Positions 1,845-63,419 of a stretch of DNA of 64,000 nucleotides are shown here, in pieces. This DNA comes from Octopus vulgaris. Taxonomy: Eukaryota. How positions within the stretch are numbered: position 1 is the stretch's first letter; the number at the start of each line of letters is the position of its first letter. Both the position numbers and the translations under genes were made by a program. A model generated the notes under the pieces. That model did no database searches. It saw only the letters and a list, made by a program, of their open reading frames with translations, and was not told the DNA's origin. The stretch spans positions 19,716,001 through 19,780,000 of the forward strand of contig OX597839.1 of the NCBI GenBank assembly GCA_951406725.2, in the 5' to 3' direction.

Positions 1845-1980
1845 CATATATATATACTTATTTAGAAGTATTTAGGTATATATATATATATTATTATTTG
1901 TAAATCTCTCAAAGCGAGAAATTCAGTAACAGTTCTTTAAAATAAAGGCTATTTGCCAACATAATATGCCTGTCCTGAAG

Positions 1981-2145
1981 GGGACGATGTTACTGCCGTC
2001 TTAGCCCCAAGAAACATCGTTTCCAGCAGGCTATACAGCACACTATCTGTGATCCCTAATCGAAAATATAAGGGCACAGATAGTGTGTCGTATAGCCTGC
2101 TAGAAACGATGTTTCTTGGGGCTAAAACAACAATAGCATCGTCCC
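1981..2145. repeat. long inverted repeat (about 75-bp arms, 13-nt loop)
   Basis: 1981-2057 is largely the reverse complement of 2071-2145. Confidence 0.9.
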
Positions 2146-2334
2146 TTTTTTTTATAAATTGAGCTCGTTCACCCTGAGAATTCTCAAATAGTCGGTAGTA
2201 TTCTTATGATATGCTATCAATTCTAGTCTTAGGCATTCCTCGTGTGTCAAAATAAAAAGTTAAAAACATTTGTAGCAATTAAAAAGCTGCCTAACCGTAC
2301 TTACTCTCCTTTTTGACTCTTTTATTTTACTCTT

Positions 2335-5408: not shown

Positions 5409-6500
5409 CTAGTTAGATTCCGCTCCCCTCGTTTGTAATTTATGCTGGGCTCTTGGTTCAACAGCTATTGTGAAAAGGAGGTTTAGTTCCTTTTTGAAGA
5501 CATCTGCTTTCATCTTATATAAATTTCTTAATTTTCGTGTCAGGGCATTGAAGAGCTGTGGGACTTTGAACGCTAAGCTATTGTAGTTCCTGATCCTGAA
5601 TTTAGATGGAGTGAATAGTACCTTTTGTACAAGTGCTCCAAGTTCTGGCATTTAAAACATAAAAATGTTCCTTCTCGAGCCATGCGAGGCTCATAAGGGC
5701 TGGTTTCCCGGTTTCAGTGGCGTAGAAATTTCCCACCTGGACGGGACGCCGGTCCATCGCAAGATTACTCATTTTTGCCAGCTGAGTGGACTGGAGCAAC
5801 GTGAAATGAAGTGTTTTGTTCAAGAACACAATGCATCGCCCGGTCCAGGAATCGAAACCACAACCTTACGATCATGAGTTCAACACCCTAACCACTAAGC
5901 CACGCGCCTCCACTGTATTTGTATAACATTCAATGCCGAAATTAGGTACTAGCCCTTCTAGAACTTTCCATGTGTAAATTATTACATATCTGTCGCTCCA
6001 AGAGTAAAGTCGTAGGTTTTTCAGCCTCTCCCTGTAGTTCATCTGCTGCCCTGTTTCAGTCTTTTTAGTGTAATGCCGTTGGGCCACTTGAAGCTCCACT
6101 GTTAGTTTAACACGCTGGAGTGACCAACGCTGAGAGCAGTAGTCCACCACCATCACCACCACCACTATCGCTACAACCATTCACCACAGCCACCAACGCC
6201 ACTCTGGAAAAGTGTGTGAAGTGGTTTCGCTAAAGTCTGCCTACAAGTCCTGAGGAGAATAGCTGGGAAGCCATCGGCCCCAGTTGCTGAGCTTGAGCTC
6301 ATTTCATCTATGGCAGCTGCTTCATCTGTCTCCTCAATGTTGATGCAATCGATGATTGGCGCCTTTTTTATTAGTGCTGAAATATTAAACAATTCAGTAG
6401 GGATTTTTTTTTAAAATCTGCATTTGTTCAAGCGGGGATTTGAAGACACTTTTAAATTGCTCACTAAGTACCTCACTTATACTTTCTGGGTTCGCGGTCA
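5409..6500 (-). mobile_element. degraded CR1/L2-group LINE ORF2 remnant with RT core deleted, interrupted by a SINE
   Basis: minus-strand peptides SATGADGFPAILLRTC..LAKPLHTLFQS (pre-RT), QRHYTKK..NYRERLKNLRLYS..RYVIIYTWKVLEGLVPN and NSLAFKVPQLFNAL..VFKKEL (C-terminus). Confidence 0.8.
5652..5913 (-). mobile_element. tRNA-derived SINE (family V)
   Basis: A-box TGGCTTAGTGG and B-box GTTTCGATTCC on minus; same family as 17383-18660. Confidence 0.85.
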
Positions 6501-7306
6501 GTGAGCTATTCCCTATTTTATATTGTACTGTTGTTGTAATATTGTACGTCAAATGTAAATAATGTAAATAATGTACATAATAGGCGCAAGGATGGCTGTG
6601 TGGTAAGTAGCTTGCTAACGCACATGCGCAATTAGTCAGTTGCTTCCTGTTCAGCCAGAGTGGACGCGAGTCAATCAGCTCCGTCCAATTAAAGAAAAAA
6701 GACCAAAAACGGAAAGTTGTCGAGGTAAGTGATTTTGTTTATTGTGAGTTGGGCATAATTTATTGCGTGCCAATTATTATTTCAGTAAGTTGTGTCCAAC
6801 TCTGAGATAATTTCGCCTGCTCTCGGCGGCTGCCGTTTTTGTGTTCATTGAAAAAAAAAAAAGAAAAAACATCCTCGAAATTCAATGCAGTTACTGTTAA
6901 AATTACCGTTGGCGGTAGCCAGTGCTGTGTTTGGGTTTGTTGAATTTATTCCCTTGTCAGAGTACTTCGCAAGAAAATTATAAAAATAAGCCACTATTGG
7001 ATTACCTTTCGGACCCATTTTTGTGGAGGTTGTGTTGCAGTTGCGGCGTTCCAGGTTCAACCCAGGCCGGGAGTACCGCAAGGCCAGAATATTTTTGCTG
7101 TGTTTTTTCTGTTTATTAACTTTCTTTTGAACTTCATTTAACCCCCCTTTTGTTTTTTTTCTTTATTGCGACTTTCCGTTAATTTCTTCCCTTCTGTTGT
7201 GCTTTCTCCTTTTTGTTTTTTCAAAAATCTATCAAATTTTATTTGGACTTTTGAACTTTTTTCTTCCTGCTTTTGAGTTTAATTTGAATATATTTTTAAA
7301 AAAAAC

Positions 7307-8536
7307 ATGGCAATGAAAAATAACAAAATTTTGGAGTGGGAAATCATACCACCTAAAAAGTGGTTAAAAGACCGTGAAGATAGTGTTGAGAACCTACTCC
7401 AAGGCACTTGACACCATCGCCCTATTCGAAAAGACGGCAATTGAAAAGGAGTTGGAAGAGTATTTGCCAACAATTAAATTCATTTCAGGGGTGTCAAATA
7501 TGCAACGGTGTGGTTGCTATTTGACACCCCTGAAGAGGCTTGCAAATTTGCTAGCAAACCCCTGGAGGGTAAGGAAATCTTATTCCTGCCCACGTACAAA
7601 AAAAAGAAATTGATGAAAGCTTGGATTTGCGGACTGCCACCCGACATAGAACCCGAGTGGATAGAGGAGACTATCCGCCGGGGTCTGGGTGACAGCGAAA
7701 CTAAACTCCTCAATGTAAAAGTTCTTCCTGCGGCTGCTTGGGTTGGGTCAAAAGCAATTTTGACCCTGTGGACCCAATCAGCCAATCTGGTTCTTCCAGA
7801 TTTTTTGAAAATGGCCGGGTGCAGGTACCCGGTGATGCTTGAGGCTCGCCCCCCTAAGTGTCATCGGTGCTTGGAGTCCGGCCACATAAAGAAGAACTGT
7901 CCTCGGGAACAAAATAGGATCCCGGAACAGTTAAGTAAAACCCCTCTAGAAGAGGGAACGATAACGGCCGAGAAAGCAGAGGACTCCTCAAACAGAGGCC
8001 GAAAGAGGAAGGTGAGCAACAATGGGTGCTCACCAAAGGATAATAGGGATGAGGAGAGGAAGGCGAATCTTCCAGCCACGGAGGAGACGCACCCTCCCTC
8101 AGTTGAAAAGGGAAAAAAAAAGAAAAAGAGGAAGAAAAACGGGACATTACCGGCTGTCAGTGTAGCACCGGAATGTCCCGGAACTACGTCGGTTGGGGTT
8201 GTGCCACCGACAAGAGAAGGAATACCGTTGGCGGAAACTGTGCCGCCAACGAAAGAACTGAACGTATTGGTCCTCTTCTATAGAGGAGGAGAAATTGAAA
8301 AAGTGATGGAAGAGCACTACAAGGGAGCACCTTTAGCCTTTACACAGGACCCCGAATGGCCTCCGCAGGTAGCTGTGGAGGCCGTGGCGTTCGACGTGAC
8401 GCTTGGGCTAAAGGAGCTCAATGAAGATTATAACTTGGTCCCGGGCGACGCGAACTCGGAACTTGACTACGTTCTGAGGGAGGCGTGGTTGATGGTGGAG
8501 GGCGCGGGCACAAGCTATTTCGAGGACGATATGTAA
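7307..8536 (+). CDS. L1/Tx1-type ORF1 (gag-like RNA-binding protein with CCHC zinc knuckle); two compensating frameshifts near 7368 and 7487
   Basis: ORF 7508-8536 has RRM-like KAWICGLPPDI and CHRCLESGHIKKNC (CX2CX4HX4C); ATG 7307 is in the same frame; the intervening segment reads in the 7374 frame. Confidence 0.8.
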
Positions 8537-8552
8537 TTATTGAACTGTTATT

Positions 8553-8678
8553 ATTAGTAATGGACTTAAGTCCAAAAATTGAAAAATTGTAAGAGGATTA
8601 ATACCTCGTTTTGTATTAATAATGGACTGCTAAGTCCAAAAATTGGAAAAATTGTAAGAGGTTTAATACCTCGTTTTG
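8553..8678 (+). repeat. about 63-bp tandem duplication in the element 3' UTR
   Basis: AATGGACT..AAGTCCAAAAATTG..GTAAGAGG.TTAATACCTCGTTTTGT occurs twice. Confidence 0.9.
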
Positions 8679-9309
8679 TGTTTATCTTTAAAAAGAACAA
8701 TGTTTTAGAGAAGCGAAAGTCGGCGGGCGCTTTTTGTCTTCTCCCATCCTTATCATCTTTCTTTCATTATCATTCACCTCATTAATGTCCTCGTCCAGCC
8801 CGCAAAGCTAACTTAATCTGTGTACTGCCTTTATGGCAAATGTTTTGAAATAAAGTAGCTTGCTAACCAGCCACATGGTTCCGGGTTCAGTCCCACTGCG
8901 TGGCATCTTGGGAAAGTGTCTTCTGTATAGCCCCGGGCCGACCAATGCGTTGTGAGTGGATTTGGTAGACGGAAACTGAAAGAAGCCTGTCGTATATATG
9001 TATATATATATATATATATGTGCATGTGTATGCATTTGTGTGTCTGTGTTTGTCCCACTAGCATTGCCTGACAACCGATGCTGCTGTGTTTACGTCCCCG
9101 TCACTTAGCGGTTCGGCAAAAAGAGACCGATAGAATAAGTACTAGGCTTCCAAAGAATAAGATCTGGGGTCGATTTGCTCGACTAAAGGCGGTGCTCCAG
9201 CATGGCCGCAGTTAAATGACTGAAACAAGTAAAAGAGTAAAGAGTAATTCCACATCTCTTAAATATAGAACTGTATCAAAAGCGGTTGTCAAGCAGTGGT
9301 GGGAGACAA

Positions 9310-9614: not shown

Positions 9615-9800
9615 GTGAATAATCGTTAGCACACCTGGCAAAATGCTTAGCGATATTTCGTCCGCTTTTCCGTTCTGAATTTAGATTCCGCTTTTCATTT
9701 CTATCGGCGCGATAAACTAAGTACCAGTTGCATAATAGGGTCACTATTATAAAGATACCTCTTGCCCAGAATTGCTGGCTCTGTGCCAAAATTTGAAATG
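9615..9800 (+). mobile_element. degraded family M SINE
   Basis: similar to GTTAGCAC..AAATGCTTAGC..TATTTCGTC..CGATAAA.TAAGTACCAG. Confidence 0.6.
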
Positions 9801-17309: not shown

Positions 17310-18660
17310 GGTGACGGTGCCACATTCTCGGTCGCAAAATCGTAGTCTTAATTTCCGAACGGAGCGATGCATTGTGTCCTTGAGTGGAGGCGCGTGGCTA
17401 AGTGGTTAGGATCTTGAACTCATGATCATAAGATTGTGGTTTCAATACCTGGACTGGGTGATATGTTGTGTTCTTGAGCAAAACACTTCATTTCATGTTG
17501 CTTCAGTTCACTCAGATTGCAAAAGTGAGTAATCCTGCGATGGACTGGCGTCCTATCCAGGGAGGAGTAATATACCCCAGAGGAACCAGGAAACCAGCTC
17601 TATGCTCCTAATGGAGTGATGTGGGCTATAGACATACTCTACAATATTGTAATGTATAATATAGATATTGTGGAGACACATGACTTAGCGGTTAGAGTGT
17701 TGGACTCCTGATTGTGAGATTGTGGTTTCGATTCCTGGACTGGGCAGTGCATTGTGTTCTTGAGCAAGACACTTCATTTCATGTTGCTCCAGTCCACTCA
17801 GCTAATGGTTAGGATGTTGCACTCATGACTTCTAGATTGTGGTTTCGATTCCTGGACTGGGCAGTGCATTGTGTTCTTGAGCAAGACACTTCATTCCATG
17901 TTGCTCCACTCCACTCAGCTAATGGTTAGGATGTTGCACTCGTGACTTCTAGATTGTGGTTTCAATTCCTGAACTGGGTAGTACATTGTATTCTTGAGCA
18001 AGACACTTCATTTCACCTTGCTTCATTTCACCTCAGCTGGCAAAGATGGGTAATCCTGCGAAGGACTGGTGTCCCATCCAGGGAGGAGTATATACGCCAG
18101 AGGAACCAGGAAACCAGCTCTATGCTCCTTATGGAGTGATGTGGACTATAGACATACTCAGCAATATTGTAATGTATAATATAGATATGGTGGAGACACA
18201 TGGCTTAGTGGTTAGAGTGTTGGACTCCTGATTGTAAGATTGTGGTTTCGATTCCTGGACTGGGCAATGCATTGCATTCTTGAGCAAAACCCTTCATTTC
18301 CATGTTGCTCCAGTCCACTCAGCTAATGGTTAGGATGTTGCACTCATAACTTCTAGATTGTGGTTTCGATTCCTGGACCGGGTGACGCGTTCTGTTCTTG
18401 AGCAAAACCCTTCATTTCATGTTGCTCCATTCCACTCAGCTGACAATTATGAATAATCCTGTGACAGACCGACATCCCGTCAGGGTGGGGAATTTATGCG
18501 CCATGAAAAGATTTGGCACGAGCCTAAAAGGTAACTTTACTTTTGAAGGTGCACGGCTCAGTGGTTAGGGTGTTGGACTCGTGATCGTAAGACTTGGAGT
18601 TTCGATTCCTGAACCGGGTGGCGCGTTGTGTTCTTCAGCAAAACACTTCATTAGATATTT
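17310..18660 (+). repeat. tandem cluster of about 7-8 family V SINE monomers with a nested about 520-bp duplication
   Basis: GGTTAG..GATTGTGGTTTCGATTCCTGGAC repeated; spacer 17612-17668 duplicated at 18133-18188. Confidence 0.85.
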
Positions 18661-22133: not shown

Positions 22134-22194
<61 letters not shown>

Positions 22195-22590
22195 CAAGTC
22201 GCTACCAGGAATCGAACTCGGAATTTTGGGGTTAGTAGCCCGCGCTCTTAACCATTACTTATTTCTTTATTACCCACAAGGGGCTAAACACAGAGGGGAC
22301 AAACAAGGACAGACATAGGTATTAAGTCGATTACATCGACCCCAGTGCGTAACTGGTACTTAATTTATCGACCCCGAAAGGATGAAAGGCAAAGTCGACC
22401 TCGGCGGAATTTGAACTCACAACGTAACGGCAGACGAAATACGGCTACGCATTTCGCCCGGCGTGCTAACGTATCTGCCAGCTCGCCGCCTAGTGGAACT
22501 ATGCCCACGGGCATATGGCGTAGTGGTTAAGAGCGCGGGCTACTAACCCCAAGATTCCGAGCTCGATTCCAAGCAGTGACCAGAACGATA
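22015..22590 (-). mobile_element. tRNA-headed element with hammerhead-like tail and an inverted copy of its head
   Basis: tRNA-like head on minus 22195-22258 and on plus 22508-22582; (TAA)n; degenerate hammerhead 22042-22085. Confidence 0.6.
22259..22490 (-). mobile_element. family M SINE (tRNA head, Meta-like core, LINE-derived tail A)
   Basis: GGCGGCGAGCTGGCAG..GAGTTCAAATTCC..GCCTTTCATCCTTTCGGGGTCGATAAATTAAGTACCAG..CCCCTTGTGGGTAATAAAGAAATA. Confidence 0.9.
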
Positions 22591-23169: not shown

Positions 23170-24165
23170 TAATGAAAGGAACACTAAAAAAAGAGACCGA
23201 GATCAGTATACTGGCAGTGCAAGATCAAGCTTTGGTCACGAACTGGAGGTTCAACCTTTCGAATGAGCAAGTGTTTCCGTTGTGGATGAAACCATTGCCC
23301 GTATCACAGAGGAATGCCCTAGACTTGTCTAAAGCCACTACAAGTCGTGGCGACACGGTCAGGTAACGAAAGTGATACACTGGGAACTTCGAAATGTTGG
23401 GGCTAGAGAGGAGCAAGATGTGGTATGAGCGCAAACAGTAGAGAGTGGCGGAGTCTGGGACTTGCAAAATCCTGTGGGATTTCTTAATCCAAAAAGATCA
23501 GGGACTAGAACATAACAGACCGGACCTTTTGGTGGTCGACAAGATGCACCATATGTGCTATATAGTTAATGTTGCATGCCCATTTAACACACGAACAGTA
23601 GAAAAGGGAAGGCGAAAAAACTAGATAAATACTAGATAAACCCTCTTAAGTACAAAATAGCCCGGCTACGGAAAATGAAGGAGATGAAGATAGTGACAAT
23701 TATTGTTGGGTCCTTGGGGGCAGTATCAGACGGTCTGGCAGAAACGTTAGCACGCCGGGCGAAATGCGTAGCCGTATTTCGTCTGTCGTTACGTTCTGAG
23801 TTCAAATTCCGCCGAGGTAGACTTTGCCTTTCATCCTTTCGGGGTCGATTAAATAAGTACCAGTTACGCATTGGGGTCGATATAATCGACTTAATCCGTT
23901 TCTCTGCCCTTGTTTGTCCTCTCTGTGTATAGCCCCTTGTGGGTAGTAAAGAAATAGGTATCAAGTGGATTATAAAGGAAATTGGAACAGAGTGCCCAGT
24001 AGAACTGTTACAAAAGGTTTGGCTCCTTGGCACGGACAGAATAATGAGGAAAGTATTAGCTGAAAAGAGCGAATGGCATGGTAACGTAGGCTGCAGGTCG
24101 TAACCCCGTTACGCATGCAAAACTCCAGGATTTCCAAGAAAAACTTTGGTAAAAAGAAATAATAA
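23170..24165 (+). mobile_element. R4/Dong-like non-LTR retrotransposon 3' remnant (restriction-like endonuclease), with a family M SINE at 23735-23961
   Basis: ETEISILAVQDQAL, KILWDF.IQ.D..LEHNRPDLLVVDK, IVGSLGAV, LLQKVWLLGTDRIMRKVL; TAA flanks. Confidence 0.8.
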
Positions 24166-24567
24166 TTATAATCCTTTCTACTGGAGGTAAAAATCCTCAA
24201 ATTTGTTGGGCGGGAACTAGTAGATTATATCGACTCCAGTACGCAACTGGTACTTAATTTATCGACCCAGAGAGAAGAAAAACCAAAGTCGACCTCGGCG
24301 GAATTTGAACTCAGAACGCAGCGGCGGACGAAATACCTATTTCTTTACTACCCACAAGGGGCTAAACACAGAGAGGACAAACAAGGACAAACAAACAGAT
24401 TAAGTCGATTACATCGATCCCAGTGTGTAACTGGTACTTAATTTATCGACCAGGAAAGGATGAAAGGCAAAGTGAACCTTAGCGGAATTTGAACTCAGAA
24501 CGTAACGGCAGACGAAATACGGCTACGCATTTCACCCGGTGTGCTAACGTTTCTGCCAGCTCGCCGC
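24165..24567 (-). mobile_element. family M SINE dimer
   Basis: junction AAAGAAATAG/GTATTTCG at about 24336. Confidence 0.85.
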
Positions 24568-24780
24568 TTAACGATGATGATGATGATAAAATTTACATAT
24601 ACACGCAAGAAAGAATAGCCGTGGCACCAAGCAGTGCATTCATATTACGTAAAGCAATGCTTTCAATAGAATAACAGAAACGGAAACCAATGAACTAAAC
24701 CTATGGAAGGAAACACAGAGCCGGGCTCCGTTGTGCACTGAATGCACGCAATAAAATTAAGGATACTAAAATAATAGCAA

Positions 24781-33209: not shown

Positions 33210-33774
33210 ATGTATGTATGTATGTATCTATGAGTGTATGTTTACTTTATTACTAATTACTCTCTTCCAAGAACATTTTCACTCACTCTTAGCTCTTAGC
33301 TTCCCATACATTTTACTCATGTGTCTATCAGCGTCATAGACAGAATACTTTCACTTTAGTCTTCCTCAAATCACTGTCGCTATTTACTTTCATTTTATTC
33401 ATTGCCCACTGTGTGTGTGCGTTTGCGTGTGGTGTAAACCAGACTAAGAAAAGCATTTGACACACACACCAGAATGTGAGTTTTCTGTAAATTTTGCTTA
33501 ATTGGAGTTTAAATTTTAAAAACTGGACCTGGCATGACGCGATGCATTGTACTCTCAAAAATGCCAGGTAAATTGTAATTGAAGAAATCCTATATTGTAG
33601 ATTTGTATAACTCCCAAAGGGAGGCAGATAAAATCTGCCTTTTATAATAAGAGATATACATATGATAGAGAGAAAGGATAGACAGATAGATAGACAGATA
33701 GACATGTCAACATATAGACATCTCGACAAATAGACATCTCGACAGATAGACATCTAGAACTTATCTGTAAATAT

Positions 33775-33930
33775 AATATGTGACAATTATTTGGTAACCA
33801 TGATAAAACTCCGAGTTTCGGATGTCGGGGCGGAAGTCCACGCCGGCATTTCTTCAGTTATCGGGCCATCGGAAAAAAGACATCCAAAACTCGGAGTTTC
33901 ATCATGACTACCTAATAATTGTCACATATT
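33775..33930. mobile_element. foldback element containing a minus-strand hammerhead motif (Penelope inverted-pLTR-like)
   Basis: arms 33775-33826 and 33879-33930; minus GATAA CTGAAGA..GAAA CTCGGAG TT TTATC. Confidence 0.6.
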
Positions 33931-34008
33931 AATCATATTCACAGATAAATTCCTCCATTTACATAATATCGAGGTCTCATTCTTTTTTTTGACTTGCCAT
34001 TTCTATGA

Positions 34009-36714: not shown

Positions 36715-37291
36715 TCTTTTCTACTCAAGGCACAAGGCCCAAAATTTTGGAGGAAGGGGTCCAGTCGATTTCATGGACCCCAGTACGTAACTTAATTTAT
36801 CGACCCCCGAAAGGATGAAAGGCAAAGTAGTCCCTCGGTGGAATTTGAATTCAGAATGTAAAGACAGACGAAATACCTATTTCTTTATTACCCACAAGGG
36901 GCAAAACATAGAGGGGACAAATAATGACAGACAAACGGATTAAGTCGATTTATCGACCCCAGTGCGTAACTGGTACTTAATTTATCGACCCCGAAAGGAT
37001 GAAAGGCAAAGTAGACCTCGGTGGAATTTGAATTCAGAATGTAAAGACAGACGAAATACTTATTTCTTTACTACCCACAAGGGGCTAAACATAGAGAGGA
37101 CAAACAAGGACAGAGAAACGGATCAAGTCGATTACATCGACCCCAGTGCGTAACTGGTACTTAATTTATCGACCCCGAAAGGATGAAAGGCAAAATGACC
37201 TCGGCGGAATTTGAACTCAGAACGTAACGGCAGACGAAATACGGCTACGCATTTCGCCCGGTGTGCTAACGTTTCTGCCAGCTCGCCGCCT
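36715..37291 (-). mobile_element. family M SINE trimer (head, tail A, tail A, tail B)
   Basis: junctions at about 37059 and 36876. Confidence 0.85.
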
Positions 37292-37889
37292 TGATGATGA
37301 CAATGATGATGATAATGACAATTACAATGATGATGATAATGATGGTGATGACAATGATGATGATGATAGTGGTGATGATGATGGTGGTGATGATGATCAT
37401 TATCATGATAGTGGTATGACGATCGTAATGCTGAAGATGATGATCGTGATGGTAATGGTGATGGTGATGATGATGATGATGACGGTGATGACATTCTTGA
37501 TAATGATGATACTGGTGATGTCGACAATACCGCTGCCACAGCTGCCACTTATGATGATGATAATGTGTCGACAGATGGAGCTGTTGTAGTTGCTTTTCTA
37601 ACTAATATCAAGCTGACCGATTATTATTCTGATCAAATCTCCATTCCAGCCATGGCCATGCCCTCTTTAACAATGTGCCGGCAACATTATCCATCAGGCC
37701 ATCTATGTATCACAGTTAATGAATATACACACTCGATAGGCCAGTTTCTTTAGTAACTGTTCCGATATAACATATCGTATGGATGCGATGCGTTAAAAAC
37801 ACAATATGTATATCAGATAGGGGCGAAAAATCCCCCCAGTAAAAAAGATAAACACCCAAACGGCTTCATCTACAAAAGCATATACGTAG

Positions 37890-38997: not shown

Positions 38998-40777
38998 TTA
39001 TTTCTTTACAGCCCCCAAGGGGCTAAACACAGAGGGGACAAACAAGGACAGACAAAGGGCTTAAGTCGATATACATCGACCCCAGTGCGCAACTGGTACT
39101 TAATTTATCGACCCCGAAAGGATGAAAGGCAAAGTCGACCTCGGCAGAATTTGAACTCAGAACGTAAAGACAGACGAAATACCTATTTCTTTACTACCCA
39201 CAAGGGGCTAAACACAGAGGGGACAAACAAGGACAGACAAAGGGCTTAAGTTGATATACATCGACCCCAGTGCGCAACTGGTACTTAATTTATCGACCCC
39301 GAAAGGATGAAAGGCAAAGTCGACCTCGGCAGAATTTGAACTCAGAACGTAAAGACAGACGAAATACCTATTTCTTTACTACCCACAAGGGGCTAAACAC
39401 AGAGGGGACAAACAAGGACAGACAAAGGGCTTAAGTTGATATACATCGACCCCAGTGCGCAACTGGTACTTAATTTATCGACCCCGAAAGGATGAAAGGC
39501 AAAGTCGACCTCGGCAGAATTTGAACTCAGAACGTAAAGACAGACGAAATACCTATTTCTTTACTACCCTCAAGGGGCTAAACACAGAGGGGACAAACAA
39601 GGACAGACAAAGGGCTTAAGTCGATATACATCGACCCCAGTGCGCAACTGGTACTTAATTTATCGACCCCGAAAGGATGAAAGGCAAAGTCGACCTCGGC
39701 AGAATTTGAACTCAGAACGTAAAGACAGACGAAATACCTATTTCTTTACTACCCTCAAGGGCTAAACACAGAGGGGACAAACAAGGACAGACAAAGGGCT
39801 TAAGTCGATATACATCGACCCCAGTGCGCAACTGGTACTTAATTTATCGACCCCGAAAGGATGAAAGGCAAAGTCGACCTCGGCGGAATTTGAACTCAGA
39901 ACGTAAAGACAGACGAAATACCTATTTCTTTACTACCCTCAAGGGGCTAAACACAGAGGGGACAAACAAGGACAGACAAAGGGCTTAAGTCGATATACAT
40001 CGACCCCAGTGCGCAACTGGTACTTAATTTATCGACCCCGAAAGGATGAAAGGCAAAGTCGACCTCGGCGGAATTTGAACTCAGAACGTAAAGACAGACG
40101 AAATACCTATTTCTTTACTACCCTCAAGGGGCTAAACACAGAGGGGACAAACAAGGACAGACAAAGGGCTTAAGTCGATATACATCGATCCCAGTGCGTA
40201 ACTGGTATTTAATTTATTGACCCCGACCCCGAAAGGATGAAAGGCAAAGTCGACCTCGGCGGAATTTAAACTCAGAACGTAGCGGCAGACGAAATCCCTA
40301 CTTCTTTACTACCTACAAGGGGCTAAACACAAAGAGATAAACAAGGACAGACAAACGGATTAAGTCGATTATATCGACCCCAGTGTGTAACTGCTACTTA
40401 TTTAATCGACTCCGAAAGGATGAAAGGCAAAGTCGACCTCGGCAGAATAAAAAATGTGAAGTTTTAATTATTTTCTGAGATTTTACAAAAACAACAAAAA
40501 TAAGACACGAAATACCGCTAAGCGTTTCGCTCGGCGTGCTAACGTTTCTTATTTCTTTATTGCCCACAAGGGGCTACACATAGAGGGGTAAAAGAAGGAC
40601 AAAGGGATTAAGTTGATTATATCGTCCCCAGTGCGTTACTGATACTTAATCTATCGACCCCGAAAGGATGAAAGGCAAAGTCGACCTCGGCGTAAATTGA
40701 ACTAAGAACGTAAAGACAGACGAAATAGCGCTAAGCATTTCGCTCGGCGTATTAACGTTTCTGCCAGCTCGCCGCCT
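38998..40777 (-). repeat. tandem array of family M SINE bodies, 185-bp period, about 9 units
   Basis: AAGG(G)GCTAAACAC at 39017, 39202, 39387, 39572, 39757, 39941, 40126, 40317; full head at the 40777 end. Confidence 0.95.
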
Positions 40778-41380
40778 CAGAAATGCATTTCCATGCGTTC
40801 TCTGTCGGATTTATGACCAATAAAATGTTTGTGGACAGTGATTGATCAGATTTAATTCCGGCTTAATGCGCACAGCTTTAAGCAATCCGCAACGGCCATT
40901 TATAGAGAATGCTTCGAATTATTTTCTTCATATTGAAAATCAACTACGATGCTTAGTTAAATAATCATAGTCTGGGCGAAGATCTCCAGATCTTCACATC
41001 TGTTCCTTAACCCTTGCGAAGAGGTCAAAGATGCCCCTCATCATTTATACTGATTTGTCCCTTATACCTTAAATGCACACTCAAACATTGTGTTGTTTCG
41101 ATTGATTTTAAGTCAAGATCACACACTAAATATTTTATTACGATATAGAGTTTATATTTGACCTCAATCTCTGAACAAATAAGATCATGGCTTTTCCTAA
41201 CAGCTGATCAGATTTGAATAGTTAAACTCCAGAGCAAAATTAAGGCAACCACACCGGTTTCAACGAAACGGGATTCTTTATACTACAGAGTCTAAAATAT
41301 GATAATGTTGGGTTAATTTTTATAGAGATACAGTAATGCAATGTTATTTGTTTTAAAAAGAATGAACGTATCGCCATCAC

Positions 41381-41521: not shown

Positions 41522-41599
41522 CTGTAAGTCAGAGACGAACTGTCCGCGATAGCATTTCATGCGATAAAATTTAGCGTTTAGCTATAGTTTGTCTTTGAA

Positions 41600-41990
41600 G
41601 GCGTCGAGTTGGCAGAAACGTTAGCACGCCGGGAGAAATGCTGAGCGGTATTCTGAGTTCAAATTCCGCAGAGGTTGACTTTGACTTTCATTCTTTCGGG
41701 CTCGATTAAATAAGTACCAGTTACGCACTGGGGTCGATGTAATCGACTTGATCCGTTTCTCTGTCCTTGTTTGTCCTCTGTATGTTTAGCCCCTTGTGGG
41801 TAGTAAAGAAATAGGTATTTCGTCTGCCGCTACGTTCTGAGTTCAAATTCTGACGAGGTCAACTTTGCCTTTCATCCTTTCGGAGTCGATAAATTAAGTA
41901 CCAGTTGCGTACTGGGGTCGATCTAATCGACTAGTCCCCTCACCAAAAAAAAAATAAATTCATGCCTTTGAGCCTCTAGTAGAAAGTATA
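41600..41990 (+). mobile_element. family M SINE dimer (tail A then tail B)
   Basis: junction AAAGAAATAG/GTATTTCG at about 41814. Confidence 0.85.
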
Positions 41991-44827: not shown

Positions 44828-44924
44828 ACAACAACAACAGCAACAACAACAACAATTATAATAATAATAAAAATAACAATAATAACTACAATAACAGCGA
44901 TAGTAATATTAATGATGATGGAAA

Positions 44925-46279
<1,355 letters not shown>

Positions 46280-47030: not shown

Positions 47031-47479
47031 TGTGCTAACGTTTCTGCCAACTCGCCGCGTATAAGTAATTATAAATCACATACAAATGTTTCCATTATTG
47101 GCCATAATAAAATTACAAAAATCCATTGTTGGGGGGGAGGGAGCCACGCAGTGGGACTGAACCCGCAACCATGTGGTTGGTTAGCAAGCTACTTACCACA
47201 CAGCCACTCCTGCGCCTATACATATATATATGTGTAATTCGTGTAATTTCTTATCGATATTCGGATTCCCATTTCCAATAAGACTTATTGGGTTTGTGTA
47301 TCCTAATATACAAAATTACGATGAAGAGATTCTTGGTCAAAAACAATGAATTTTTATGATTTTATTATGGCGAAGAATTGAAATATTTCTTTGCGATTTA
47401 TAGTTAATATCTATTACTTATTATACAAAAAAAGTATAGTTGTTATAAGGAAAAAAAATCAGATATTGAACCAAGCGGG

Positions 47480-48189
47480 CCGGAGGTGAGGTTTGAAACT
47501 TTGCCTCCGGTCATAAACTGCAAAGAAGTAGAAAAAATAAAGACCAAAGACAGTAAAGGGGATGTCAAAAAGATTTTGATTAAAGAAATTGATTAAATGT
47601 AACTACCGAGTACGGGGTTCGGGTAGACATTTAATCCTCATATATCACGCTTTTTATTCATCCTGTCTATGTTTCATTAAATTTCGGTACTTAAACAATT
47701 CCGCTATCATTACCTCTAGTTCTAACATATTCTCGCCTACGGCGACCGAAAAGCGAGGTTTCTCCACAAACAATTGCTTTGCATTGTCGGCTTCTTTGCC
47801 TGGTACCTTATTCATCTCTGGAAAATCCTCCCTAGACATGACGTTGAATTCTATTACAAAATGAATTCCTTCAAAATGGAATTGAAAAAATATCCTTTTT
47901 TTTTTTTTTACAAAAAATGACAAAAATAATATTTTTAATCTTGCAAAGAGTAAAAAAAAATCAAAGAGGTCAAATCCCAAGTTCAAATAGCAGTTGTTTC
48001 CGACAATATGAAAACTTCCAGAAAACTTCTTCCCCGCAGTGCGAAAATATCAGTTCTCAAATTAACAACAGTTCGAATTTCAACAAGTACAACAAACTGT
48101 GCAATAACAATGAAAAATAAATTAATAACAAATTAAACTCACCAAAAAGCAGCGGCCAAAAGAAGATGCAGCTCAGTGAGGCAACTCTG
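47480..48189 (-). mobile_element. 5' UTR and decayed ORF1 start of a second L1/Tx1-like element
   Basis: MSREDFPEM..RFSVAVGENMLELEVMIAELFKYRNLMK loosely resembles the ORF1 N-terminus at 7374. Confidence 0.4.
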
Positions 48190-48665
48190 TATTTCTTTGT
48201 TCGCCTATAAAGGGCAAAAATGGAGAGGTTAGAACAGAGGGGACGAAACAAGGACAGTCTTACACGGGCTGATAATTTGTATATCGGGATTGAAAATCGA
48301 AATTTACAATGAAAATGGAAAATGCGAAAAAAAATATAATTATATAAAGATATTGTCCGTGGGTTCTTTTTGACCCGCCGGCTTTTTATTCATTGGTTAA
48401 TTCTCTGTTTTTGTATTTTTGAAATTTTTTTCCGTTTTTTCCCTATTTTTCGTCTTGACCGGCTACACTAGCACGGCCCCATTCATGCTCAACTTCCTTA
48501 CCACAGTTGTCAATCTTCTTCCGTACACACCCTGAGGCCGGTACCTTTTCTCCAGACAGATCTTTCTCAGCAGGTGGAAGTTAAAATAACTTACCAACCC
48601 GTGTCTGGAGATAAAGTGGCCTGTCTCAATCCCTTTCGCACGGGTCAACAGGTGTTCGACACAGG
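48190..48665 (-). mobile_element. 5'-truncated L1/Tx1-like LINE: ORF2 C-terminus plus 3' UTR
   Basis: TRAKGIET..LVSYFNFHLLRKICLEK..VVRKLSMNGAVLV*; the 3' end matches family M tail A. Confidence 0.65.
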
Positions 48666-48683
48666 TTATCGACTCCCTCAGCT

Positions 48684-48721
<38 letters not shown>

Positions 48722-51492: not shown

Positions 51493-52811
51493 AGTGAGTG
51501 AGAGAGCAGCGCATGCCATCAAAGTGATACTGGGGTAAAATATACGAAGCCCAGTATGCTCATCATGAATAACCGTCTGATAAAGGTACACCAGGAACAT
51601 TCAGCATAACCATATGTACGCGACATGGTGATCTCATATAAAGATAAACAGCTCATGACCTTGCAGGTGGGGCCCCGTTGGAATTTTTTTCATTTTGAGT
51701 AGCCCATCTCGCTCAAAAGGTCCCTGAATAAGGGTTGTTCAAGGATGTTGCACGAAATACCGATGTTTTATTCAGGGACCTTTTGAGCGGGATGGGCTAC
51801 TCAAAATGAAGAAAATTCCAACGGAGCTCTACCGGCAAGGTCATGTAGGGCCCCGTTGGAATTTTCTTCATTTTGAGTAGCCCATCTCGCTCAAAAGGTC
51901 CCTGAATAAGGGTTGTTTAAGGATGTTGAGCGAAATACCCATGTTTCCAGAGGTGAATTATTCAAACCCCAAAGAATTCCTCTCAACACATGGCTATGAT
52001 GATACCCCCACTACTTCTGCTCGTGATCGGATATGCACATATTGTCAGCCACTAAGGGACATGCTCAACTGGTTACGGTCAAGCAAATGACAAGCAAATC
52101 TGTAGTATTGAGCCAAAAATTTGCTGTTAGCCTATCTTTTATACCAAGACAAAACAATCTCAAAAAAATGTACAAACATTTCCAATCAGTTATGATCAAA
52201 AGCCATGATAGCCATTGCCTGGTACTGCATCAGGGCATTATTATTATTATTATTATTGAGTGAGAGAGCAGTGCATGCCATCAAAGTGACACTGGGGTAA
52301 AATATACGAAGCCCAATATACCCATCATGACTACCCGTCTGATAAGGGTACACCAGGCACATGCATCACAACCATATGTGCGCGACATGGTGATCTCATA
52401 TCAATATAAACAGCACATGACCTTGCAGGTGGGGCCCAGTTAGAATTTCCTTCAGGTTGAGTAGCCCATCCCGCTCAAAAGGTCCCTGAATAAGGGTTGT
52501 TTAAGGATGTTGAAAGAACCACCCATGTTTCCAGAGGTGAATTATTCAAACCCCAAAGAATCCCTCTCAACACATGGCTATGATGCTCCCCCACTACTTC
52601 TGCTCGTGATCAGAGATGCACATATCGTCAGCCACTAAGGGACATGCTCAACTAGTTAAGGTCAAACAACTGACAAGCAAATCTGTGGTATTGAGCAGAA
52701 TATTTGCTGTAGCCCATCTTTTATACCAAGACAAAACAATGTACATGATAACACTTCCAATCAGTTAAGATCAGAAGCCATGAGAGCCACTGCCTGGTAC
52801 TACATCAGGGC

Positions 52812-54484: not shown

Positions 54485-54972
54485 AATTCCGCCGAGGTCG
54501 ACTTTGCTTTTCATCCTTTAGGAGTCGATAAATTAAGTACCAGTTGCGTACTGGAGTCGATCTAATCGACTGGCCCCCTCCTCAAAGATTTTGGGCCTTG
54601 TGCCTAGAGTAGAAGAGATTATTACATATTTATTCTTTTACTCTCTTCCGTGTTTTAGTCATTTGACTGAGGCCATGCTGGTGCACCGCTTTGAGGGGTT
54701 TTAGTCGAACAAATCGAGCCAGGAGTTATTTCTTAAGCCTAGTAATTATTCTATCGAACGCGTTTGCCGAACTGCTACATTTGGGGGATGTAAACACATC
54801 AACACCGATTGTCAAATGATGACGGGGGACAAACAGGCACAATGTTACACACACATAGATACACACACACACGTACCCCCATACACTCAGAGGCATATAT
54901 ATTATATATCGTGAAATTTGATTTAGTATTACTAAATTGAATTTTTCTCTGTAAGTTTGTAATCATATTCCC

Positions 54973-62407: not shown

Positions 62408-62936
62408 AAACACGCATCAACAGCTCAACACAGAACGTATGAAAATCCATGGAGCGTGACCAACAAGGAAGAATTATTACAACCACATGTAGCAGACAGT
62501 GGCGTCACCTAACGAGCTTTCTATAAATTTATCTCTGATATCCCAATTTAGCTGGAGATTATGACTATGGATTTTCCGGGATGTAAAAGCTAAGAAACTA
62601 CTTGAAACTTGAGATTGAATATCAAAACGGCAATTTCGAAACAGCTAGTTACAATTTGTGAATTTAATTAGTTCTCAACGAGATAATTGCTTCCCTTTGA
62701 TTAAATCTACCTTGATTTATCGTCGAATGCCATGCGGAAAACATTTAAGATATCCGTGTTTTAATTAGACTCTTTAATAAGCTTAGCTTTAATTTTAACT
62801 GCTAATATGCTATCGCTCCTAAGCCCTGATAACAATTAAGTTATATACGCCGTTTGTACCCCTTTTCTCAAAAGTACTCCCAATTTTAATTTCAGTTCAG
62901 CGACTTACTATTTTACATGCTAAGATTTGAACTGAA

Positions 62937-63419
62937 GGTGTTGAGCTGGCAGAAACGTTAGCACGCCGGGCGAAATTCGTAGCCGTATTTTGTCTGCCTC
63001 TACGTTCTGAGATCAAATTCTGCCAAGGTCGACTGTGCCTTTCATCCTCTCGAGGTCGATAAATTAAGTACCAGTTACGCACTGGGGTTGTTGTATTCGA
63101 CTTAATCACTTTGTTTGTCCTTGTTTGCCCCCTCTGTGTTTAGCCCCTTGTGGATAGTACAGAAATATGTATTTTGTTTGCCGATGCGTTCTGAGTTCAA
63201 ATTCCGCCGAGGTCGACTTTGCCCTTCATCCTTTCGGGGTCGATAAATTAAGTACCAGTTACGCACTGGGGTTGATGTAATCGACTTAATCACTTTGTCT
63301 GTCCTTGTTTGTCCCCTCTATGTTTAGCCCCTTGTGGGTAATAAAGAAATAAGAAACGTTAACACGCCGGGCGAAATGCTTAGCAGTATTTCGTCTGCAG
63401 CTACGTTCTGAGTTCAAAT
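62937..63419 (+). mobile_element. family M SINE trimer (third unit partial)
   Basis: junctions at about 63168 (GTATTT site) and 63352 (AGAAACG site). Confidence 0.85.

What the first reader, a model, noticed from the sequence alone, without database searches (positions are those of the whole stretch)
48190..48665. Probable partner LINE of the concatemer SINE lies in the window: shared 3' tail with a Tx1/L1-like element
Seen: the minus-strand LINE end CTGTCCTTGTTTCGTCCCCTCTGT..GCCCTTTATAGGCGAACAAAGAAATA (about 48257-48190) aligns with SINE tail A CTGTCCTTGTTTGTCCCCTCTGTG..GCCCCTTGTGGGTAGTAAAGAAATA, both with a terminal GCC..GG stem-loop. The ORF1-only element ends in a weaker version (TGTCCTCGT..CTGTGT..GCCTTTATGGC..GAAATA) and shares AAAGYCGGCGGG in its 3' UTR (8715 vs about 48385). 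Known: stringent SINE-LINE pairs share 3' tails; this is typical of L2/CR1/RTE and unusual for the L1 clade. Inference: one Tx1-like ORF2 mobilises both passengers and gives them a preference for tRNA-like heads.
Basis: partly seen in the sequence, partly recalled or inferred. Interest (0 to 1): 0.75.

Follow-up and report, generated by a model that had tools for sequence, protein, structure and literature searches.

The report
Octopus SINE shares LINE's tail
A short jumping gene in this octopus DNA ends in the same stretch of about 55 letters as a broken piece of a long jumping gene nearby, which suggests it borrowed that tail to be copied by the long element's enzyme, an arrangement seldom reported for this kind of long element in animals.

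Summary
The tail match is real. The element ending at 48190 (minus strand) is the best of 116,212 candidate ends for the last 30 nt of SINE tail A. It matches only the tail-A module, starting where the shared SINE body stops. The ORF1-only element resembles the LINE end weakly (68 of 116,212) and the SINE end barely (about 1%). The rest is less firm. Only 73 codons of ORF survive; three of four hits are real relatives, the named one from Octopus bimaculoides, and no tool assigned a clade, so 'Tx1' rests on recall and context. No second LINE copy was available to exclude a SINE remnant. Three of eight SINE loci end in a different tail (B), two with flanking direct repeats, so those concatemers moved on tail B. 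Preference for tRNA-like heads is mixed, and the stem-loop is weak, without covariation. Best reading: tail A came from this LINE lineage, probably Tx1-like; this copy is a decayed relative of the partner, not shown to be the partner.

The parts
48463..48687 (-). Last ~73 codons and stop of a long-element ORF, 5'-truncated against a (GA)n run; decayed (extra codons near its 5' end, Leu where four relatives have Trp)
   Evidence: 44-47% identity to P0002, P0003, P0005, P0006 by tblastn
48190..48462 (-). 273-nt A/T-rich 3' UTR, no poly(A) tract, ending in AAAGAAATA
48190..48257 (-). Tail shared with SINE tail A: block 48257-48234 (23 of 24), 13-nt tandem duplication, hairpin block, terminal 9-mer
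48200..48218 (-). Predicted terminal hairpin, 6 bp, -5.5 kcal/mol, z -1.36
48374..48385 (-). AAAGCCGGCGGG word shared (11 of 12) with the ORF1-only 3' UTR
47407..48189 (-). Unexplained 3' flank: T-rich, 61-codon ORF at 47839-47657; first ~60 nt weakly like the SINE head
6620..8852 (+). ORF1-only element: 5' UTR, ORF1 7307-8536 (two frameshifts, near 7380 and 7485; RRM-like fold plus one CCHC knuckle), 316-nt 3' UTR ending in GAAATA
6605..6619 (+). Left copy of the 15-bp target-site duplication of the ORF1-only element (right copy 8853-8867), inside a tRNA-like SINE head
8716..8727 (+). AAAGTCGGCGGG word in the ORF1-only 3' UTR
38999..40778 (-). SINE cluster with 9 tail-A ends, 185-nt units; a 10-bp direct repeat lies near both outer ends
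22260..22491 (-). Single SINE ending in tail A, followed by the A-box region of another tRNA-like repeat; no TSD
23736..23956 (+). Single 5'-truncated SINE ending in tail A
45646..45879 (-). Single SINE ending in tail A inside (TA)n
41598..41987 (+). Composite SINE, tail A internal, tail B terminal, 12-bp direct repeat around the whole
36715..37292 (-). Composite SINE A+A+B, 17-bp (ATC-rich) direct repeat around the whole
24150..24568 (-). Composite SINE A+B, no clear direct repeat
62934..63419 (+). SINE A+A followed by a partial own head

Best explanation
48687-48190 (-) is a decayed, 5'-truncated copy of an octopus non-LTR retrotransposon lineage, probably L1/Tx1-like (clade recalled and inferred, not tested). 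A tRNA-headed SINE swapped its 3' module for the last ~55-60 nt of an element of this lineage (tail A). Copies ending in tail A are then reverse-transcribed by that lineage's ORF2, which recognises the tail: a pyrimidine-rich block, a small hairpin and a GAAATA end without poly(A). The ORF1-only element is an internally deleted, HAL1-like relative from the same lineage with a more diverged tail. This copy is a sibling of the true partner rather than the partner itself. Composites that end in tail B carry tail A as internal cargo and depend on another LINE. Shown: the match, its limits, the TSDs. Inferred: direction LINE to SINE, clade, recognition by ORF2.
For: Rank 1 of 116,212 ends; 0 of 40 and 0 of 5000 shuffles. 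A profile of 12 SINE units matches the LINE only at positions 93-150 (E 0.0086), while its matches to other SINE tails and families stop at positions 77-98, mostly 87-93, so homology starts at the module boundary. The match sits 200-270 nt behind the stop codon of a protein-coding remnant. It differs from the SINE majority tail at 9 aligned positions plus a duplication, against 0-8 for 13 SINE copies; ungapped over the last 31 nt, 12 differences against 0-3, unlike an ordinary copy. The ORF1-only end, fixed independently by its TSD, is closer to the LINE end than to the SINE end and shares a second word in the same order. ORF1 looks like RRM plus CCHC proteins, including the ZCCHC3-type cluster (score 0.90). 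L1-Tx1 is abundant in O. vulgaris: 80 families, 56 Mb; 13 recently active families.
Against: One LINE copy only; no second copy in the window or in GTDB. No clade assignment from any tool. No TSD around the LINE. Its 3' flank faintly resembles the SINE head at nearly the register seen in concatemers, as a decayed concatemer remnant would. One SINE copy (40550) has 8 mismatches to the majority tail, close to the LINE's 9. The hairpin is no more stable than shuffles and has no covariation. Unanchored, the ORF1-only tail is not significant.
Confidence: 0.55

Rival explanations
1. The match is an old 5'-truncated SINE or concatemer remnant that landed in or behind the LINE's 3' UTR; the LINE family does not carry this tail.
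For: Tail-A ends are common (18 in the window). The 60 nt after 48190 score in the top 1-11 of 10,436 windows against 6 of 8 SINE heads from the CAGA register, under one of three scoring schemes. No TSD and no second LINE copy.
Against: Homology starts at the tail-module boundary. Divergence is uneven: 23 of 24 and 9 of 9 in the outer blocks, but 9 differences in the 22 nt between (Fisher p 6e-4, blocks drawn after inspection). The head likeness is only about 60%, the register was chosen afterwards, and a head profile misses it at E 50. The ORF1-only end is closer to this tail than to the SINE's.
Confidence: 0.18
2. One reading: one Tx1 ORF2 moves SINE and ORF1-only element alike and cuts preferentially in tRNA-like heads, which builds the concatemers by self-targeting.
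For: The ORF1-only element sits in a SINE head with a 15-bp TSD; heads are about 5% of the window (3166 of 64,000 nt). Tail A at 22260 abuts another tRNA-like A-box within 1 nt of the register seen at 40550 and 63351. The LINE flank hint. Precedent: SINEU and Tx1-Mar share targets and form tandem insertions (PMC4494074).
Against: 2 of 3 composites ending in tail B have direct repeats around the whole unit, and internal units at separate loci share diagnostic bases, so the commonest junction looks inherited. Of 4 loci ending in tail A with a foreign flank, 1 is in a head. Three different registers are used. SINE and ORF1-only tails match at only the 1% level.
Confidence: 0.2
3. The tail is truly shared but the long element belongs to another clade, making this an ordinary stringent pair.
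For: No tool placed the 73-aa fragment in a clade. Nearly all of the 58 listed pairs are outside the L1 clade (PMC3747384 Table 1).
Against: The fragment reads like a Tx1/L1-type ORF2 end (recalled, untested). The ORF1 of the related element has RRM-like domains and one CCHC knuckle. The ends carry no short tandem repeat.
Confidence: 0.12
4. Reverse direction: the LINE lineage captured its 3' end from the SINE, or tail A is now only cargo and no longer used for priming.
For: Tail A is internal in 3 of 8 loci. A related SINE family carries a similar TGTCTGT..GTTTGTCCCC stretch in its body (second-best scores 32.5-34).
Against: At least the 38999 cluster and 45646 end in tail A with direct repeats or repeat flanks. 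The ORF1-only relative keeps a diverged version, which suggests the tail is older in the LINE lineage.
Confidence: 0.07

Closest known systems
Stringent SINE-LINE tail pairs (L2, CR1, RTE and others; 58 listed in PMC3747384 Table 1)
   Same: tRNA-like head, shared ~55-60-nt 3' end, small predicted terminal hairpin
   Different: Partner here is probably L1/Tx1-like; no octopus pair appears in the part of the table read; no terminal short tandem repeat
L1-clade pairs ZmSINE2/ZmSINE3 with LINE1-1_ZM and SINEX-3_CR with L1-1_CR (PMC3472496, PMC3747384)
   Same: SINE tail taken from an L1-clade element, with a hairpin
   Different: Those are green plants and an alga, and compensatory changes were shown for the monocot pair; here an animal, no covariation, clade untested
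Crocodilian SINEU with Tx1-Mar (PMC4494074)
   Same: SINE attributed to Tx1 machinery; insertion into other repeats; tandem copies
   Different: SINEU has snRNA heads and poly(A), and no LINE sharing the SINEU-1 3' end was found; the link rests on targets. Here the link is the tail, and the target evidence is thin
HAL1, HeT-A, Ag-Sponge: ORF1-only non-autonomous LINEs (passage in PMC5786205)
   Same: ORF1 without ORF2, own 3' UTR, TSD
   Different: ORF1 is RRM-like plus CCHC; derivation from this LINE is only weakly supported
Tail-swapping SINE superfamilies of molluscs (MetaSINEs PMC4824008; bivalve SINEs PMC11481361); octopus OK, OR1, OR2
   Same: One body with alternative tails; tandem arrays
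   Different: Bivalve partners reported are CR1, CR1-Zenon, L2 and Nimb. Whether this SINE is OK, OR1, OR2 or a Meta-domain SINE was not tested

Membership tests
Tx1/L1-clade LINE | RT domain grouping with Tx1/L1 | not testable with these tools
   RT absent from the fragment; no full-length relative retrieved
Tx1/L1-clade LINE | APE endonuclease and two-ORF layout | not testable with these tools
   Only the last 73 codons remain
Tx1/L1-clade LINE | ORF2 C-terminus like that of known Tx1/L1 proteins | tested here: inconclusive
   No Pfam family, no PDB sequence match, three-helix model pLDDT 64 with no distinct fold match; likeness is recalled only
Tx1/L1-clade LINE | Target-sequence preference (many Tx1 families) | tested here: inconclusive
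   One copy, (GA)n on the 5' side, no TSD; weak head likeness on the 3' side
Stringent SINE-LINE pair | Shared 3'-terminal sequence beyond chance | tested here: met
Stringent SINE-LINE pair | Tail present in the LINE family, not in one copy only | not testable with these tools
   No second copy in the window or GTDB; no octopus DNA collection on hand
Stringent SINE-LINE pair | Conserved terminal stem-loop with compensatory changes | tested here: inconclusive
   92.7% of 55 cells paired against 2-62% when slid, but 0 pairs changed on both sides; z -0.17 to -1.47
Stringent SINE-LINE pair | Tail-dependent mobilisation by the LINE's ORF2 | not testable with these tools
   Needs a retrotransposition assay
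ORF1-only (HAL1-like) non-autonomous LINE | ORF1-type protein, no ORF2, TSD | tested here: met
ORF1-only (HAL1-like) non-autonomous LINE | 3' end derived from the partner LINE | tested here: inconclusive
   Anchored 68 of 116,212; unanchored 220 of 5000 and 279-307 of 1000
Named octopus SINEs OK, OR1, OR2 or MetaSINE | Sequence match to the published consensus | not testable with these tools
   Consensus sequences not available to the tools

The most novel reading that the evidence does not exclude
An animal Tx1 lineage that recognises a poly(A)-less structured tail and cuts in the Pol III A-box region of SINE heads. It carries both a tRNA SINE and an ORF1-only passenger, and the SINE, by inserting into its own head, builds concatemers that hold two different tails and can ride two unrelated LINE machineries.
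Probability: 0.2. Interest if true: 0.75.

Novelty: new variant of a known kind. Interest (0 to 1): 0.5.

Why it matters
Ohshima found only three SINEs with L1-clade tails among 58 pairs, all in green plants or an alga, and proposed that strict tail recognition was ancestral in the L1 clade and later relaxed (PMC3472496). An animal Tx1-tailed SINE would give that question a test case outside plants, with a short tail that is easy to mutate. SINEs make up 11.6% of the O. vulgaris genome and most recently active families are unclassified, so naming a partner lineage would help explain the octopus SINE expansion. If the element is not Tx1/L1, or the match is a remnant, the finding is ordinary.

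Tried and rejected
Clade assignment of the 73-aa fragment failed by every route. Word searches for longer proteins found none, with the fragment (27 candidates) and with alignment A1 (8000 scored, 337-2000 aa only). Pfam gave nothing, PDB sequences one chance hit, the ESM Atlas no usable hit for P0005. Foldseek gave none at E 0.001; VIA-align gave a best Z of 6.7 among unrelated helical proteins, and no retrotransposon protein is in the 50 rows shown. P0004, one of four phmmer hits, is a repetitive unrelated protein and was dropped. GTDB scans: 0 matches for the tail; 79 pattern hits, none confirmed. Rfam returned microsatellite noise in the 150 of 295 rows shown and did not detect the tRNA-like heads near 22.2-22.6 kb; ARAGORN found no tRNA, so 'tRNA-like' rests on reading the boxes by eye. 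The LINE's 3' flank as a second element's 5' UTR: 47-74 of 1000 shuffles, not accepted. The AAAGAAATA at 47392 lies inside an inverted repeat and has no hairpin, so it was rejected as a 3' end. Supplements of PMC9115989 held no tail motif in the text that could be read; files 3, 5 and 6 yielded under 100 characters each, file 7 was not searched and two files were too large, so other LINE copies may lie there unseen. No complex prediction was run.

Full report
Setting. The window is repeat-rich octopus-type DNA: the ORF at 7478-8536 has one database relative, an Octopus sinensis protein at 75% identity over the 150 residues searched. The named relatives of the 48.5-kb fragment are O. bimaculoides proteins. 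Three elements are at issue: a long-element remnant at 48687-48190 (-), a tRNA-headed SINE with 18 tail-A ends in 8 loci, and an ORF1-only element at 6620-8852 (+).

The match is real. The SINE tail scores 55.5 against the remnant's end. The best score in 40 block-shuffled, SINE-masked windows was 29-40.5, and 0 of 5000 pair shuffles reached it. Treating every unmasked position as a possible 3' end, 48190 ranks first of 116,212 for the last 30 nt with both SINE copies tried. The alignment has 45 identities and 9 mismatches over 54 nt. The 13-nt insert is a tandem duplication of the tail's own unit. A profile of 12 SINE units matches the remnant only at positions 93-150 (E 0.0086), whereas its matches to other tails and SINE families stop at positions 77-98, mostly 87-93. 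So the shared part is the exchangeable tail module and no SINE body lies upstream. This is the best argument against a randomly truncated SINE copy.

The ORF1-only element. It has an exact 15-bp TSD and sits inside a tRNA-like SINE head. Its ORF1 carries two frameshifts near 7380 and 7485 and one CCHC knuckle (below Pfam's cut-off). Its O. sinensis relative resembles RRM plus CCHC proteins. Its tail is not significant unanchored (1036 of 5000 against the SINE, 220 of 5000 against the LINE). Anchored at the TSD-defined end it ranks 68 of 116,212 against the LINE and 1362-1860 against the SINE. The AAAGYCGGCGGG word is in both 3' UTRs; CGGCGGG occurs three times in the window, and chance estimates run from 5 to 58 of 1000 depending on the test. 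A hairpin pattern drawn from the three ends occurs, outside SINE copies, only at these two ends; that pattern was defined after inspection. The element is thus probably kin of the LINE, more distantly of the SINE tail.

The stem-loop. A GCC(C)-YTTRT-(G)GGY hairpin can form. Of 55 cells, 92.7% pair, against 2-62% for slid registers, but no pair changes on both sides. The 5 ends folded are no more stable than shuffles (z -0.17 to -1.47). It is plausible, not shown.

Clade. Only 73 codons remain. An exhaustive HMMER search gave 4 hits, 3 of them real relatives of 76-192 aa; none has RT. Pfam, PDB sequence, Atlas and fold searches gave no assignment. That the peptide reads like a Tx1-type ORF2 end is my recall and comes from no call. 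Context is compatible: L1-Tx1 covers 56 Mb in 80 families in O. vulgaris and 13 families are recently active. The copy is decayed (extra codons near its 5' end, Leu where four relatives have Trp). It differs from the SINE majority tail more than most SINE copies do: 12 against 0-3 ungapped differences in the last 31 nt, and 9 against 0-8 aligned mismatches. It is better seen as a sibling of the partner.

Which tail moved the SINE. Three of 8 loci end in a second tail, B. Two of these have exact direct repeats around the whole composite: 12 bp at 41598-41987, and 17 bp, ATC-rich and so weaker, at 37292-36715. The third has none. There tail A is internal, and internal units at separate loci share diagnostic bases, so the usual tail-to-head junction is probably inherited from master copies. 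Four loci end in tail A with a foreign flank: 38999 (10-bp direct repeat near both ends of the cluster), 45646 (in TA repeats), 23956 (unrelated after five bases) and 22260 (another tRNA-like head, no TSD). One (63351) runs into a partial own head. The partner of tail B was not found in the window; its clade is unknown.

Target preference. For: the ORF1-only insertion; the 22260 junction, within 1 nt of the A-box register seen at 40550 and 63351; heads are about 5% of the window. Against: 3 of those 4 loci are not in heads, three registers are used, and the LINE has (GA)n on its 5' side and no TSD. Its 3' flank gives a faint signal. The first 72 nt score in the top 1-11 of 10,436 windows for 6 of 8 heads from the CAGA register with one scoring scheme (42 and 630 for the other two). 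From the AGA register, the one SINE junctions actually use, the ranks are 12-1828. A head profile misses the flank at E 50. The signal fits both insertion into a decayed head and a decayed concatemer remnant, so it decides nothing.

Mechanism proposed. A template switch gave a tRNA-headed SINE the last ~55-60 nt of this LINE lineage. ORF2 of that lineage binds the tail and primes reverse transcription at GAAATA without poly(A). An ORF1-only deletion derivative uses a related tail. Later fusions put tail B behind tail-A units. Shown: sequence relations and TSDs. Inferred: direction, clade, recognition. Confidence 0.55.

Literature, with what I saw. PMC4494074: parts 1-4 of 5; SINEU is tied to Tx1-Mar by targets, and no LINE sharing the SINEU-1 3' end was found. 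PMC3472496: passages; three L1-tail SINEs among 58. PMC3747384: passages and the first part of its tables. PMC5786205: passages on HAL1. PMC4824008, PMC4758252, PMC11481361, PMC11203168, PMC8967140, PMC4640811, PMC3706591: passages; the last names Dewa as targeting a tRNA spacer. PMC13282606: part 1 of 3 and a supplement search. PMC9115989: passages and part of its supplements. Ohshima and Okada 1994 was not read. Nine searches listed no paper reporting an octopus SINE with a Tx1 tail; some listings showed only the top rows. Repbase, Dfam and subscription journals were not searchable, so prior description is not excluded.

Verdict. Observation confirmed; interpretation partly supported. New variant of a known kind if the clade holds, ordinary otherwise. 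Interest 0.5.

Noticed in passing
window 47407-48189 (-): T-rich 783-nt stretch directly after the LINE end with a 61-codon ORF (47839-47657); no Pfam match, not in the protein collection; composition like the ORF1-only 5' UTR but alignment not significant.
   Followed up: partly
window 47066-47130 and 47342-47406: 65-bp inverted repeat pair (83%) enclosing a tRNA-like SINE head at 47217-47143; possibly a MITE.
   Followed up: no
window 38999-40778 (-): The whole 1.8-kb cluster, including a partial head and a 60-nt non-SINE spacer, has a 10-bp direct repeat near both ends, as if inserted in one event; inner units are 98-99% alike.
   Followed up: partly
window 22190-22590: Two tRNA-like repeats head to head, each ending in (AAT)n, around a short palindrome; the SINE sits in the head of one arm.
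   Followed up: partly
window 9735-9800, 44905-44975, 54565-54640: The same SINE body also carries tail B and a third tail variant, so at least three tails are in use.
   Followed up: partly
window 9052-9227 and seven or eight similar copies: A second SINE family shares a central stretch with this SINE and has a TGTCTGT..GTTTGTCCC run resembling the start of tail A.
   Followed up: partly
window 8550-8685 (+): Tandem duplication of about 65 nt in the ORF1-only 3' UTR; the LINE remnant also has short duplications.
   Followed up: no
window 17383-18652: Tandem and nested copies of another tRNA-headed SINE, with single copies at 5712-5934 and elsewhere.
   Followed up: no
window 51498-52789: Two related ~580-nt repeats ending in (ATT)n, the first with an internal inversion; probably 3' ends of another LINE.
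   Followed up: no
window 1978-2148 and 33761-33948: Long imperfect palindromes of 171 and 188 nt.
   Followed up: no
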